Shown piece after piece: positions 40,201 to 43,200 of a stretch of 64,000 nt of DNA. The stretch is from assembly GCF_056712565.1 (NCBI RefSeq), contig NZ_CM160072.1; one strand, given 5' to 3'. The position numbers were made by a program. Position 1 is the stretch's first letter; each line of letters opens with the position of its first letter.

Positions 40201-43200
40201 TTCCCTCACAGATGTCAGTACGCCAGCACGCTGTACAGGCTGTACAGCGTGCCTCCCAATCCTGCAGCCCAGAACAGTAGAAATATTTTGGCTCCTACAC
40301 TGTAGCGAGTCCGTATGCGCCGCAGTGGGTGGTAGTAACAACGCTGCTGTGTCATAACAATCCTGGTCTTTTTTTAGATATATTTTTTCTTTGTCCGGAA
40401 AGTACTTTTCCGGAAATGGCGTCAGAATTTATTGATTCACCAACGGCAACTTTCTCTGGATAAAGGATTCCGGATACCATGTTCTGCACATACTGAGTGA
40501 GTCGATGAGCGGAATGTTGTCCGATATATTTTGCATGTAGCCGTATATTCCGTTTCACTCTGCTGTCACCGCATCCCGTATAGAGCAGCCTGAAATCGCT
40601 CAGTGTTCCCAGTCCAAGTTTCATTAAAGCCCGTGTGGCAATCGCATGCAGGGTCTTTGAACTGCGTTGTTCATAACGGGCAATCTCACTGAAACTCATG
40701 CCCTGCATCAGAATCTTAAGCACGCTCAACTCCCGTGCAGTCAGGAGCCAGAAATCGCTCATATCGCCGGGCAAAGGACGTAGTAACCAGCGGATAATTT
40801 GATTCTGATAACGACTCGCTGTCAGCATGGTGCCGATGCGTGGGAAGCCGTTATACAGACTTGCAGCAGGAGCATTATCGAACCAGTCGGAGTCACCGGT
40901 CAGGCAGACCTGCCATTGCCCGGCATCACTCCGCAAACGGGCGAGACAAGCCAGAAGAACCAACTCCCCCGAAGGAAGCGAAGGGATATCAGCTAACAGG
41001 TAGCCACAGGAGGTCTTTAAAACGAATTCAACCTCTGTAGTGACGTTGCTGTACACCCGCACGATATACCTGTCCGTTGGGATGAGAGACTCCAGTGCCA
41101 GCCTGGTGAACTGACAGGCACTGATAATAACCAGAGGCTTCTTCATTCAGACTCGTCCACGCCATTGCTACAAAACCTGACATTTTGATTCAAAATGTCA
41201 GGTTTGGTTTAATAGCCTGAATATTTAATTTTCTTGGAATATAAATCTGATTTGTTTGATTTTTATTGTTTTTAATTTTGTATTATTTAACAATATGGGC
41301 GAAAGTTAATCACTGGTATGACCTTTGTGATTAATCATTTCAAATCATGGGGTTATTTTACTTTAGCTAGAAATATCAACATGTTATGTGTTTTATTTAA
41401 TTGAATGGGCTGTTTTTTTATGGAAGAATTGAGGAAAACGTAGGAATCTGACATTTTGAATCAGAAGGTACTGTTTTAACGAGGCTTTTTTTTCCACACC
41501 CCTTTAAAACGAGCAGCATTACTGGCTGTGTATCTGACAGTATGCTGAATATTTCGATGACCCAGGTAATCCTGAAGTAGTCGGGTATCGACACCATTGT
41601 CAGCCAGAGCAAAACCACAGGCATGACGTAACATATGAGGATGTGCTTTTACAGCTAATCCTGCACGTTTTCCAGCCTCACGAATGATAGAAAAAAAATG
41701 TTGTCTGCTGATAGGGCGGCGTTTCCGGGAGAGAAAAAGCCAGTCTCCTTCAACTCCGTTTTCAATTAACTTCCTCTGCTTAAGCCACAACTTGATCAAA
41801 TTATATTCATCAGGAAGAAGAGGATGTGTTGTCGAGAAACCATTTTTAATACGCCGAATATTAAGTTGTTTTCCAGATGCATCAATATCGGATAAACGTA
41901 AATCAAGAAGTTCACTGGCCCTAAAACCGTGAATGAAAGCCATCATAATCAGACAGCGATTTCTTTCAGGAAAGGACATGCTCTGGGCTGCATCCATCAG
42001 CCTGTAGACTTCATCCTGTGTGAGATATTTTCTCGTCATACGCCACCGTGTACAGTTGTAAAAAAAAGAGAGGCACACCCAGATAAGTATGCCTGCAATC
42101 AGAACGTTATCGATGTAATCTCATTATCTCATTAATAAGATTTTTTGAATAGTAGTTCTACGCAACAGATTAAATATGAACTATTTATTGTGCAGCTTTT
42201 CTACAAGTCATTTTTAATGCGTGTTTTTATCTACTATAATGTGAAAAAAATAAATATTAAAACTATGAGTGACAGGTCGTGTGGGATGTGTATTACGTCT
42301 AATGCTTTAGTAATTTTTTATTATTTCTGAGATATTTAACATCATTTCCTGTGAGATTGTCTTGTTGTGTATCTAATTGATTTTAATTTTGTTTTTTTTG
42401 ATGCATAAATTTGGATGATAGAAAGTAAGATTAGCTTAATATCAATGATATGAATTTATAAATACATATTGTTGCAAGGTGTTCTTTACTTTTTTGGTCG
42501 TTAGTAAATCATTGTTAATGGGTTCTGTTCATAAATTAAAAATATTCATTTAAATGATTTTTACTTTTTGTATATCTCAATTTGTTTATTTTGCATTCAT
42601 TTGATGGAGAGTATTCCAACACTTTTTATTTTTCGCAAAAAACTTATTAACAACTTTTTATTATCAATTGAAAATTAATGTAAACTAAAATGTTAGCGAA
42701 GCGATAATCTTGTGCTAAAAAATATTTAAGCATGATGATTAATTAAAGAAGAGTAAAAATAAATCGCTGCTAATAAATTATACGAACCGTGTTTAAAGCT
42801 CCATGTGGTTTTGGTCTGACTTATTTTTGTACTCGTTACAAGAACCCTTTTCGTACATGCTAACCGTGAGCGGGAATGAACAGGTAACCATAGCCAGGAA
42901 CATTAGCGGCGTAATTCTTAAGCTGAGTGGTATTTCATCTGTAGTTTATCTGTGTATGCATAGCACCTTCATCAGCCAGATTGAGCAAGTCAGCTTAGAA
43001 TTTGCTGGTGAGATTGTCACGATGAAGCATGAGAGTTACCTCAGTGTTTTATATAAGGATTCGGTCCTCATAGTAGAACGGTAACTCTCAATCTGATAGG
43101 TTCCTGAGTCAGTTCACATCACGACTCATTTTTTTCGCTCTCACCGGCATCCCATTTGCCACAAAATATCTTGCCGTGCTCCTCGGCAACGCATCCTTCC

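What the first reader, a model, noticed from the sequence alone, without database searches (positions are those of the whole stretch)
42080..43108. One-kilobase AT-rich non-coding tract between the recombinase and betA
About 1 kb of strongly AT-rich sequence with long A/T runs and short direct repeats (for example atctcatta twice at 42117-42135) has no convincing ORF. It lies upstream of the recombinase gene and contains a partial echo of the switch repeat (aatcagaa at 42104-42113). Tracts like this in acquired DNA are typical nucleoid-protein (H-NS) silencing platforms and could carry the recombinase promoter, a small RNA, or further recombinase sites. The only listed ORF here (42803-43084, 93 aa) has less AT-biased composition and could be a genuine orphan gene.
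Basis: seen in the sequence. Interest (0 to 1): 0.4.

Follow-up and report, generated by a model that had tools for sequence, protein, structure and literature searches.

The report
Non-coding upstream arm of fimX recombinase
The AT-rich kilobase is the gene-free end of a known E. coli islet (PAI-X) and most likely the control region of the FimX recombinase gene; its 93-codon reading frame is not a real gene, so the finding is largely ordinary.

Summary
Window 42040-43108 is a 1069-bp gene-free interval between fimX/ipbA/hbiF and betA, and it contains the most AT-rich DNA in the 64 kb.

It is not one unit. Comparison with islet-free E. coli puts the end of the known PAI-X islet (fimX-hyxRAB) at 43021/43022, so 43022-43108 is core DNA.

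The 93-aa ORF crosses that junction. It loses its ATG in two allele classes and is split by a stop-bearing 96-bp segment in 86 genomes. It has only same-locus "hypothetical" relatives, so I judge it spurious.

The tract has four zones:
- **Proximal module, 42040-42230.** Conserved and under constraint. It holds an extended -10-like motif and a hairpin followed by eight U residues about 20 nt before the fimX ATG.
- **Centre, 42231-42640.** It keeps its length and AT content but diverges 24-38% between lineages.
- **Distal AT-rich block, 42641-42857.**
- **Islet end, 42858-43021**, at ordinary GC.

Best reading: this is the fimX promoter and leader behind a fast-evolving AT-rich stretch of the kind H-NS binds, analogous to the fimB and fimE upstream regions. 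Promoter activity and H-NS binding are inferred, not shown.

I found no support for a known small RNA or for extra recombinase sites. It is a new member of a known kind, of low to moderate interest.

The parts
42040..43108 (.). Whole gene-free interval between the fimX start codon and the betA stop codon (1069 bp, 31.1% GC)
   Evidence: No feature is annotated in the identical genome HS13-1.
41476..42039 (-). fimX / ipbA / hbiF, a Fim-family tyrosine DNA invertase (187 aa, ATG at 42039-42037). This is the gene the tract precedes.
   Evidence: RefSeq annotation of the identical locus. Pfam PF00589 on its homologues. Translation.
42040..42230 (-). Proximal conserved module: the inferred fimX promoter, leader and regulator-binding region
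   Evidence: 93-97% identical among three E. coli allele classes and 93-96% to Escherichia sp. MOD1-EC7003, whose fimX four-fold sites differ by 16-21%.
42123..42131 (-). Extended -10-like motif TGAGATAAT. It is formed by the tandem ATCTCATT repeat (42118-42134 on +). The predicted start would be near 42116.
   Evidence: Read from the sequence. Invariant in allele classes I-IV. Not conserved in the 69%-identical islet L024. The promoter scanner did not call it because the -35 is weak. Its function is inferred.
42097..42109 (+).
   Evidence: 10 matches in 64 kb, two at this locus; the other, 41374-41386, is inside hyxS. Invariant in classes I-IV. Only the AACGTTATC part is kept in L024. The echo is at chance level.
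42060..42094 (-). Terminator-like leader hairpin: 10-bp stem with 4-nt loop at 42094-42071, then CUC and U8 at 42067-42060. It ends about 20 nt before the fimX ATG.
   Evidence: Scanner hit. Folding energy -12.9 to -14.8 kcal/mol. The only stem change, T to C in classes III and IV, turns a G.U pair into G-C; the other change is in the loop. Kept with a remodelled apex in L024. A non-homologous equivalent exists in the paralogous locus L018.
42231..42640 (.). Hyperdivergent AT-rich centre (24.6% GC). Its length and composition are conserved but its sequence is not.
   Evidence: 69-76% identity between allele classes and 62-70% to MOD1, against 97-99% in fimX. Collinear, with no inversion. Transition/transversion ratio 1.1-1.7, length 348-360 bp, GC 24-28.5%. 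Within class I, 10 variable columns per 100 bp against 0.9 in fimX.
42641..42857 (.). Distal AT-rich block (27.6% GC), conserved at about the local neutral level
   Evidence: About 95% identity between classes I and II. A promoter-like site on + at 42647-42675 is a consensus match only. No folding signal for 42680-42850 (z = -0.72).
42858..43021 (.). Right end of the islet at ordinary GC (44.5%). Class III alleles carry 96 extra bp at 42857/42858.
   Evidence: The last 56 nt (42966-43021) also adjoin a different gene cluster in metagenome contig L023.
43022..43108 (.). Core-genome DNA downstream of betA, present in islet-free E. coli. It contains a perfect 10-bp inverted repeat at 43031-43040 / 43080-43089.
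   Evidence: 4901 of 5426 genomes hold a match to the tract query, but only 1879 hold at least 80% of it; in the listed islet-free genomes the match covers only these last ~87 bases. Empty-site alignment. The inverted repeat is read.
42803..43084 (+). The 93-aa ORF, judged spurious
   Evidence: It crosses the islet/core junction. ATG becomes ACG in classes II and III. The 96-bp segment brings a stop in frame. It is called as anything from 57 to 150 aa across genomes, always 'hypothetical', with no Pfam domain. A full phmmer search finds only this locus plus a short repeat-motif resemblance. pN/pS is no different from the other five frames. No Shine-Dalgarno sequence.

Best explanation
The tract is the gene-free right arm of the PAI-X islet plus 87 bp of core DNA. 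It most likely works as the 5' control region of the fimX (ipbA/hbiF) recombinase gene.

**Shown**
- The islet boundaries.
- The absence of any credible gene.
- A 191-bp module next to fimX that is under purifying selection.
- A conserved hairpin and U-run about 20 nt upstream of the start codon.
- A roughly 400-bp centre that keeps its AT content and length while its sequence diverges unusually fast.

**Inferred**
- fimX is transcribed from within the proximal module. The candidate is the extended -10-like TGAGATAAT at 42131-42123.
- The transcript must then pass the hairpin and U-run. This element would act as a leader attenuator or as an insulator against transcription arising in the AT-rich DNA, keeping recombinase output low.
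- The 0.6 kb of 25% GC DNA upstream is coated by H-NS-type nucleoid proteins, as are the AT-rich regions upstream of fimB and fimE.

The 93-aa ORF is a chance open frame.
For: **Location and boundaries.** The identical locus is annotated ykgH, hyxB, hyxA, hyxR, ipbA, [nothing], betA. The islet is 37025-43021 by comparison with empty sites. Its GC of 43.1% matches the 43.08% published for this cluster (PMC4844996).

**Expression.** fimX transcript is measurable by qPCR in UTI89 (PMC4217179), so a promoter must lie upstream.

**Constraint on the proximal module.** It diverges 4-7% from another Escherichia species, against 16-21% at fimX four-fold sites.

**Hairpin and U-run.** Scanner hit. Energy -12.9 to -14.8 kcal/mol. 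Both substitutions seen are compatible with the structure. It is retained in an islet only 69% identical in DNA. A structural equivalent made of unrelated sequence sits 27 nt before the start of an 81% paralogue.

**AT-rich body.** Lowest GC in the window. A/T runs are enriched, 17 against 7.2 +/- 2.5, and TpA steps are twice the window density.

**Analogy with fim.** K-12 nanC-fimB is 1455 bp at 36% GC and fimB-fimE is 477 bp at 27% GC. fimB has a 271-nt 5' UTR that lowers its expression, and it is repressed by H-NS (PMC3911127).
Against: - No transcription start, protein-binding or termination data could be consulted. The promoter assignment rests on a motif read by eye that the scanner did not call and that is absent from L024.
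- There is no nucleotide homology to the fimB or fimE upstream regions.
- Other FimX-clade genes manage with short, unrelated and less AT-rich upstream regions: 277 bp at 44% GC in L018, 514 bp at 36% GC in Salmonella, and about 225 bp in L024. So most of the kilobase is not needed for recombinase expression as such.
- There is no high-affinity H-NS motif within 1 mismatch and no helical phasing. Mean predicted curvature is 19.5 degrees against 16.5 for the window.
- The distal block is no more conserved than neutral sites.
Confidence: 0.6

Rival explanations
1. Mostly inert filler. Apart from a short promoter and leader next to fimX, the tract is decayed remnant DNA that came with the islet, perhaps a long-dead gene. 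It drifts towards AT-richness and has no regulatory role.
For: - The centre diverges faster than synonymous sites.
- The distal block is at the neutral level.
- Related recombinase genes have short, unrelated upstream regions.
- No motif enrichment beyond composition and A/T runs.
- A weak resemblance of ORF residues 12-31 to a PFSYxLTxSG repeat found in large repeat proteins could be a relic.
Against: - Length (348-360 bp) and GC (24-28.5%) of the centre are held steady across lineages that differ at a quarter to a third of its positions. That suggests selection on bulk properties.
- No allele examined has lost the tract, although the neighbouring hyxS element has been deleted cleanly in some lineages.
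- The relic resemblance is a single 17-20-residue motif, and Pfam finds nothing.
Confidence: 0.25
2. The conserved module encodes a small RNA, not just a leader. A transcript of about 55 nt (from about 42116), or up to about 165 nt (from the class-I promoter-like site at 42260-42233), would end at the hairpin and U8. It would have a single-stranded 5' region and a U-tailed terminator, like Hfq-dependent or 5'-UTR-derived small RNAs. fimX would then be made only by read-through.
For: - A terminator-like hairpin with a 6-8 U tail is conserved in classes I-IV and in L024.
- The sequence GATAACGTT just 5' of the hairpin is invariant in all five.
- There is no room for a promoter between the U-run and the ATG.
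- The 194-nt region folds better than shuffles (z = -2.46).
Against: - No Rfam family matches.
- The short leader alone does not fold better than shuffles (z = -0.97).
- The 42260-42233 promoter-like site is not conserved outside class I.
- No expression data were available.
- The same hairpin is equally well explained as an attenuator or insulator.
Confidence: 0.12
3. The 93-aa ORF (42803-43084) is a real, lineage-restricted orphan gene.
For: - The frame is open in classes I and II and the protein is identical in seven class-I genomes.
- GC is higher (41.5%) than in the rest of the tract.
- Some pipelines call it.
- pN/pS is 0.37 between classes I and II.
Against: - It straddles the islet/core junction.
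- The start codon is lost in classes II and III, and there is no Shine-Dalgarno sequence.
- It is interrupted by a stop-bearing 96-bp segment in 86 genomes.
- Called lengths range from 57 to 150 aa.
- It has no relatives outside the locus in 5.8 billion clustered or 1.84 billion representative proteins.
- Its pN/pS is within the range of the other five frames, 0.44-1.24.
- RefSeq does not annotate it.
Confidence: 0.03
4. The tract carries additional FimX recombination or binding sites.
For: A 10/11 match to the outer part of the right switch repeat lies at 42097-42107. It is invariant in four allele classes.
Against: - That match is expected by chance.
- The 16-nt core is absent at up to 3 mismatches.
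- The hyperdivergent centre is collinear and not inverted between alleles.
- Whole-genome inversion screens with over-expressed FimX found no new switch (PMC6458436).
Confidence: 0.04

Closest known systems
nanC-fimB and fimB-fimE intergenic regions of the E. coli type 1 fimbrial locus (control regions of the FimB and FimE recombinase genes)
   Same: - A long, AT-rich, gene-free region directly upstream of a Fim-family tyrosine invertase gene: 1455 bp at 36% GC and 477 bp at 27% GC in K-12, against 1069 bp at 31% GC here.
- fimB has a sigma-70 promoter and a 271-nt 5' UTR that lowers its expression, and it is repressed by H-NS (PMC3911127).
- A hairpin plus T-run also lies about 75 nt upstream of fimE in K-12.
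   Different: - No detectable nucleotide homology outside the coding sequence.
- None of the fimB regulators (NanR, NagC, SlyA, MicA, RfaH) has been tested or predicted here.
- The hairpin and U-run sit much closer to the start codon.
- The centre is hyperdivergent between lineages.
PAI-X / UpaB cluster / GI-4 (fimX-hyxR-hyxA-hyxB between ykgH and betA)
   Same: This is that islet. It has the same genes, the same insertion site and the same 43% GC (PMC3789825; PMC4844996). About 35% of complete E. coli genomes carry the tract.
   Different: The papers I could read describe the islet as four genes and the hyxS switch. None describes the 1-kb non-coding arm, its allele classes or the leader hairpin. 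The primary fimX and hyxR papers (PMC3809820, PMC1360361, PMC3749053) were not available to me, so a mapped fimX promoter may already exist.
AT-rich horizontally acquired DNA bound and silenced by H-NS (xenogeneic silencing)
   Same: It sits at the edge of an acquired islet. It is 25% GC over 700 bp in a 48-50% GC genome, and is enriched in A/T runs and TpA steps.
   Different: Binding is untested. No high-affinity H-NS motif is present, and predicted curvature is only slightly above the window mean, with one peak of 47 degrees at 42320.
Intrinsic terminators used as 5'-leader attenuators, and 5'-UTR-derived small RNAs made by premature termination
   Same: A GC-containing 10-bp stem and a U6-U8 tail lie between the likely promoter and the ribosome-binding site. 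The element is conserved, and the changes seen preserve the structure.
   Different: No alternative anti-terminator structure, leader peptide or ligand-binding fold was found. Termination was not measured. There is no Rfam match.
Horizontal 'regulatory switching': alternative, highly divergent promoter regions flanked by near-identical genes in E. coli (from my own knowledge: Oren et al. 2014, PNAS)
   Same: There are discrete allele classes of an upstream region inside otherwise 97-100% identical flanks, and at least one mosaic: Ecol_224 has class-I fimX with a class-II centre.
   Different: The classes here are still collinear and alignable at 62-76% identity, not unrelated. The elevated divergence is also visible within a class.

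Membership tests
Protein-coding gene (93-aa ORF 42803-43084) | Start codon and ribosome-binding site conserved in relatives | tested here: not met
   ATG becomes ACG in classes II and III. The sequence before the ATG is AAAGCTCC, with no Shine-Dalgarno match.
Protein-coding gene (93-aa ORF 42803-43084) | Reading frame intact across relatives | tested here: not met
   A 96-bp segment with an in-frame TAA is present in 86 genomes. A frameshifted C-terminus occurs in class II. Called lengths range from 57 to 150 aa.
Protein-coding gene (93-aa ORF 42803-43084) | Homologues beyond the locus, or a known domain | tested here: not met
   46 hits, all from the same E. coli locus. No Pfam hit below the cutoff. 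The full phmmer search found only this locus plus a short repeat-motif resemblance.
Protein-coding gene (93-aa ORF 42803-43084) | Substitution pattern typical of coding sequence in that frame only | tested here: inconclusive
   pN/pS is 0.37-0.76 in the ORF frame and 0.44-1.24 in the other five frames.
Protein-coding gene (93-aa ORF 42803-43084) | Lies within one evolutionary unit | tested here: not met
   Codons 1-73 are islet DNA. The last 20 codons and the stop are core DNA present in islet-free genomes.
H-NS-bound xenogeneic AT-rich DNA | AT content far above the host genome, in acquired DNA | tested here: met
   25% GC over 42100-42800 against 48% for the window. It lies inside islet 37025-43021.
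H-NS-bound xenogeneic AT-rich DNA | A-tracts and TpA steps enriched | tested here: met
   A/T runs of 5 or more: 17 against 7.2 +/- 2.5. TpA steps: 104 per kb against 53 per kb.
H-NS-bound xenogeneic AT-rich DNA | High-affinity nucleation motif (TCGATAAATT-like) | tested here: not met
   No match at up to 1 mismatch. Four matches at up to 2 mismatches, against 3.0 +/- 1.8 expected.
H-NS-bound xenogeneic AT-rich DNA | Intrinsic curvature | tested here: inconclusive
   The wedge-model mean is 19.5 degrees against 16.5 for the window. One peak of 47 degrees at 42320 exceeds the 99th percentile. No 10-11-bp AA/TT periodicity. The model parameters were recalled from memory.
H-NS-bound xenogeneic AT-rich DNA | H-NS occupancy and de-repression in an hns mutant | not testable with these tools
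   No ChIP or expression data for this locus were found.
Fim-family recombinase control region (fimB/fimE type) | Directly upstream of a Fim-family tyrosine invertase gene, on the same strand | tested here: met
Fim-family recombinase control region (fimB/fimE type) | Sequence homology to the fimB or fimE upstream regions | tested here: not met
   BLASTN with 7-nt words finds similarity only within the coding regions.
Fim-family recombinase control region (fimB/fimE type) | Mapped promoter and long regulatory 5' UTR | not testable with these tools
   Only motif predictions are available. The proximal 191 bp are under constraint.
Intrinsic (rho-independent) terminator / leader attenuator | Stable stem-loop followed at once by a U-rich tail on the transcribed strand | tested here: met
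   10-bp stem, 4-nt loop, -12.9 kcal/mol, tail CUCUUUUUUUU.
Intrinsic (rho-independent) terminator / leader attenuator | Structure conserved through sequence change | tested here: met
   A G.U pair becomes G-C in classes III and IV, and MOD1 has a loop change. L024 has a remodelled apex with the same lower stem and U-run. The sample is small, at five sequences.
Intrinsic (rho-independent) terminator / leader attenuator | Termination, or regulated read-through, demonstrated | not testable with these tools
   This needs Term-seq or in vitro transcription.
Fim-type recombination site (hyxS inverted repeat) | A copy of the 16-nt core CTGACATTTTGAATCA | tested here: not met
   The only matches at up to 3 mismatches are the switch sites themselves and one unrelated site at 29470.
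Fim-type recombination site (hyxS inverted repeat) | DNA rearrangement at the site | tested here: not met
   Alleles are collinear. The published screen found no extra inversion (PMC6458436).
Described small RNA family (Rfam 15) | Covariance-model match | tested here: not met
   No match at E <= 1 over 40500-44000, both strands.

The most novel reading that the evidence does not exclude
The hairpin and U-run conserved about 20-35 nt before the start codon is a regulated leader terminator. It is present in this islet, in a homologous islet only 69% identical in DNA, and as unrelated sequence in an 81% paralogue's locus. It may also release a 5'-UTR-derived small RNA of about 55 nt. On this reading, the output of a phase-variation recombinase, and hence the switching rate at hyxS and fimS, is set at the level of transcription elongation. 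The hyperdivergent AT-rich centre would supply lineage-specific regulatory alleles that tune it.
Probability: 0.15. Interest if true: 0.55.

Novelty: new member of a known kind. Interest (0 to 1): 0.28.

Why it matters
FimX is the accessory recombinase that turns type 1 pili ON in uropathogenic E. coli and flips the hyxR switch. How its own expression is controlled is not described in the papers I could read.

This work pins the likely control region to a conserved 191-bp module with a leader hairpin. It shows that the rest of the kilobase is fast-evolving AT-rich DNA. It also removes a false gene call. Together these give a concrete map for promoter mapping and deletion experiments.

The discrete allele classes of the centre, in otherwise near-identical islets, could underlie lineage differences in switching. 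That is a modest point, not a new principle.

Tried and rejected
- **Inversion of the centre between alleles.** Rejected; all alignments are collinear.
- **Homology of the tract to the fimB or fimE upstream regions.** None.
- **Homology of the tract to plasmids or phages.** None. The three 'plasmid' hits are mislabelled chromosomes.
- **Tract conserved upstream of FimX relatives elsewhere.** Not so in Salmonella STM0716 or in the E. coli 81% paralogue. In L024 only about 70 nt are shared.
- **The single genome-contig scan.** It returned one short contig, so broad cross-species sampling was not possible.
- **Rfam** **and a sliding-window folding z-score scan** (minimum z = -2.5 in 48 windows). 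No structured-RNA signal. The best window (42680-42799, +) did not hold up when refolded with 200 shuffles over 42680-42850 (z = -0.72).
- **H-NS consensus motif and AA/TT periodicity.** No enrichment.
- **Relic-gene idea for 42800-43021.** A full phmmer search gave only a short PFSYxLTxSG repeat resemblance, whose library E-value is inflated by repeated copies in the target. Not accepted.
- **The 44-51-aa 'hypothetical protein' annotated in class II alleles.** The frame is not conserved in class I, it is frameshifted in Ecol_224, and it has no Pfam hit.
- **An 8-codon mini-ORF at 42211-42185 (-).** It stays in frame across alleles but has no ribosome-binding site. Not pursued.
- **Literature search for a mapped fimX promoter, start sites or H-NS ChIP at this locus.** Nothing usable. 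Three key papers were not held.
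Full report
**Where we are.** The window is an E. coli chromosome. The tract is 100% identical to strain HS13-1. There the annotated order is ykgH, hyxB, hyxA, hyxR, ipbA (also called HbiF or FimX), then nothing, then betA-betB-betI.

This is the islet published as PAI-X, the UpaB cluster or GI-4. It comprises four genes plus the FimX-inverted hyxS promoter switch, inserted between ykgH and betA (PMC3789825; PMC4844996; PMC6458436).

Aligning two islet-free genomes onto the window places the islet at 37025-43021. 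The empty site reads ...aatactggat|atgaagcatgag.... My GC figure for that span, 43.1%, matches the published 43.08%.

A match to the tract query is found in 4901 of 5426 complete E. coli genomes, but only 1879 (35%) hold at least 80% of it. In the listed islet-free genomes the match covers only the last 87 bases, 43022-43108.

**The observation.** It is confirmed.
- The gene-free interval is 42040-43108, because the fimX ATG is at 42039.
- GC is 31% overall and 25% over 42100-42800.
- It holds the only stretch where a 660-bp window drops below 30% GC.
- A/T runs of 5 or more are 2.4 times more frequent than in composition-matched shuffles.
- The tandem repeat is ATCTCATT twice, at 42118-42134.
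- The 'echo' is at 42097-42107, not 42104-42113. It is no more than chance gives.

**The ORF is not a gene.** The evidence is as follows.
- Its first 73 codons are islet DNA. Its last 20 codons and stop are core DNA that exists in islet-free strains.
- The ATG is ACG in the two other allele classes, and there is no Shine-Dalgarno sequence.
- Class III alleles (86 genomes) carry 96 extra bases at 42857/42858 that bring a TAA into the frame.
- Class II alleles are frameshifted at the C-terminus.
- Gene callers report it at lengths from 57 to 150 aa, always as 'hypothetical', with no Pfam domain. RefSeq does not call it.
- A word-indexed search of 5.8 billion proteins and a full phmmer pass over 1.84 billion representatives found only this locus.
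- Beyond that, residues 12-31 show a 17-20-residue resemblance to a repeated PFSYxLTxSG motif in large repeat proteins. The E-value of that hit is inflated by the target's repeats.
- pN/pS in the ORF frame (0.37-0.76) lies within the range of the other five frames.

**Anatomy from comparison of alleles.** I aligned thirteen E. coli alleles, one Escherichia sp. genome contig (MOD1-EC7003) and one Escherichia metagenome-assembled genome. The islet's genes are 96-99% identical (fimX, hyxR and hyxA 97-99%) among three allele classes:
- Class I: the window, ABU 83972 and relatives.
- Class II: W619 and O157:H7.
- Class III: GPEC1352 and Jnd12.

Four-fold degenerate sites differ by 0-9% in the islet genes and 6-16% in betA and betB. 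Against that background the tract splits into zones.

*Zone 1, 42040-42230.* It is 93-97% identical between classes and 93-96% identical to MOD1-EC7003. In that genome the fimX four-fold sites differ by 16-21%. This module is therefore under purifying selection.

*Zone 2, 42231-42640.* It is only 69-76% identical between classes and 62-70% identical to MOD1.
- It is collinear, not inverted.
- Changes are mostly substitutions with an ordinary spectrum (transition/transversion 1.1-1.7).
- Length (348-360 bp) and GC (24-28.5%) are preserved.
- The excess also shows within class I: 10 variable columns per 100 bp, against 0.9 in fimX and 4 in betA.
- As an internal control, the interior of hyxS is equally AT-rich (25.9% GC) and lies 0.8 kb away, yet it is 94% identical between classes I and II. 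AT-richness alone therefore does not explain the divergence.
- Ecol_224 combines a class-I fimX with a class-II centre, so recombination shuffles these parts.

I cannot tell whether the centre has a raised substitution rate or whether the classes are old and their flanks were later homogenised. This remains unexplained.

*Zone 3, 42641-42857.* It is about 95% identical between classes I and II, which is roughly the neutral level.

*Zone 4, 42858-43021.* This is the islet end, at ordinary GC. Its last 56 nt also adjoin a citrate-fermentation cluster in one low-coverage metagenome contig. The K-12-type 'empty' site may therefore not be the whole ancestral sequence.

**What sits in the conserved module.** On the fimX strand there is a 10-bp stem with a 4-nt loop at 42094-42071. 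It is followed by CUC and eight U residues (42067-42060), ending about 20 nt before the ATG. A GGTGG ribosome-binding site lies in between.
- Across four allele classes, the only changes in the hairpin are a stem T to C, which converts a G.U pair to G-C, and one loop base.
- A homologous islet only 69% identical in DNA (L024, whose FimX is 84% identical) keeps the lower stem and the U-run, with a different apex.
- An 81%-identical FimX paralogue sits in a second hyx-like islet next to acetolactate-synthesis genes (L018). It has an unrelated 12-bp hairpin plus U-run 27 nt before its start. There, however, the hairpin could simply terminate the upstream operon.
- Salmonella STM0716 has no such element.
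- K-12 fimE has one about 75 nt upstream, and fimB has none.

No promoter fits between the U-run and the ATG, so fimX mRNA must read through this element.

The best promoter candidate I can see is the extended -10-like TGAGATAAT at 42131-42123. That is inference only.

The 'echo' sequence is also an exact IHF-consensus match. It is one of ten such matches in the window, and another lies inside hyxS. Only its AACGTTATC part is conserved in L024.

**How it most likely works.** The steps that are shown and those that are inferred are listed under the best explanation. In short, I read the tract as the fimX control region: a constrained promoter-and-leader module, whose hairpin and U-run limit or insulate recombinase expression, behind about 0.6 kb of AT-rich DNA of the kind H-NS coats.

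The closest precedent is fimB. It has a long AT-rich upstream region, a 271-nt 5' UTR that lowers expression, and H-NS repression relieved by SlyA (PMC3911127).

There are limits to the analogy.
- There is no sequence homology to the fim regions.
- Support for H-NS is only compositional.
- Other FimX-clade genes have short, unrelated upstream regions. Much of the kilobase may therefore be dispensable; that is the 'filler' rival.

A small RNA ending at the hairpin cannot be excluded but has no positive support. Extra recombinase sites are not supported.

**Novelty and verdict.** The islet and its recombinase are known. The non-coding arm is undescribed in the papers I could read, but three primary papers were unavailable.

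What is new here is descriptive: the junction inside the ORF, the constrained module with its leader hairpin, and the hyperdivergent centre with discrete allele classes. It is a new member of a known kind, an AT-rich control region of a Fim-family recombinase gene, and of low to moderate interest.

Noticed in passing
window 41170-41208 and 41445-41477 (hyxS boundaries); L004 6341-6398; L009 about 1140-1180: The left boundary of the hyxS switch is itself a palindrome. It carries the 16-nt core CTGACATTTTGA(A/T)TCA in both orientations, so one copy is in direct orientation to the right-hand core. Class III alleles (GPEC1352, Jnd12) and Escherichia sp. MOD1-EC7003 lack exactly the 271 bp between those direct copies and keep one hybrid site. 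That is what recombinase-mediated excision would leave, or else it is the ancestral solo site. In those alleles hyxR starts 58 bp after fimX.
   Followed up: partly
window 42231-42640: The centre of the tract diverges 24-38% between lineages whose flanking genes differ by 1-6%. The equally AT-rich interior of hyxS diverges only 6%. The cause is unresolved: a raised local rate, or old alleles with homogenised flanks.
   Followed up: partly
L018 / L019 (E. coli assemblies GCA_050854415.1 and GCA_028909615.1): A second hyx-like islet sits at a different chromosomal site, after LysR, acetolactate decarboxylase and acetolactate synthase genes. It encodes an 81%-identical FimX paralogue, two HyxR/HyxA-sized proteins and an autotransporter.
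   Followed up: partly
L024 (Logan SRR19479291 contig): A further hyx-type islet only 69% identical in DNA. It has a switch repeat and the same leader hairpin, but only about 225 bp lie between the recombinase gene and a divergent upstream gene. The organism is unknown.
   Followed up: partly
L023 3551-3808 = window 42966-43224: In a low-coverage metagenome contig, the last 56 nt of the 'islet', the core DNA and the betA 3' end follow a truncated CitMHS transporter gene and oxaloacetate-decarboxylase genes. This is either a different occupant of the same site or an assembly chimera.
   Followed up: no
window 43109-43126 (betA 3' end): betA is annotated as 562 aa in the window-type and class II/III genomes but as 556 aa in K-12-type and some class I genomes (ABU 83972, RIVM_C040753). 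So the stop position of betA varies next to the insertion site.
   Followed up: no
window 43031-43040 / 43080-43089: A perfect 10-bp inverted repeat, 39 nt apart, lies in the core DNA just downstream of the betA stop. There is no U-run. It could be a betA 3' stem-loop.
   Followed up: no
window about 41182: In my wedge-model calculation, the strongest predicted intrinsic curvature in the whole 64 kb (62 degrees) falls on the palindromic left boundary of hyxS.
   Followed up: no
L002 (O157:H7 Z1836): In O157:H7 the islet is decaying. ykgH, hyxR and ipbA are annotated as pseudogenes and hyxB is split, yet the AT-rich tract is retained at full length.
   Followed up: no
window 42060-42067, 42244-42250, 42314-42319, 42392-42399: The lengths of A/T homopolymer runs are polymorphic even among closely related class I alleles. 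This includes the U-run of the leader hairpin, which is 8, 7 or 6 residues long.
   Followed up: no
window 42041-42050 (- strand CGGTGGCGTA): The sequence around the fimX ribosome-binding site matches 8 of 10 positions of the RfaH ops core CGGTAGCGTG (ops recalled from memory). It lies downstream of the hairpin, so it is probably chance. fimB has a reported ops-like element.
   Followed up: no
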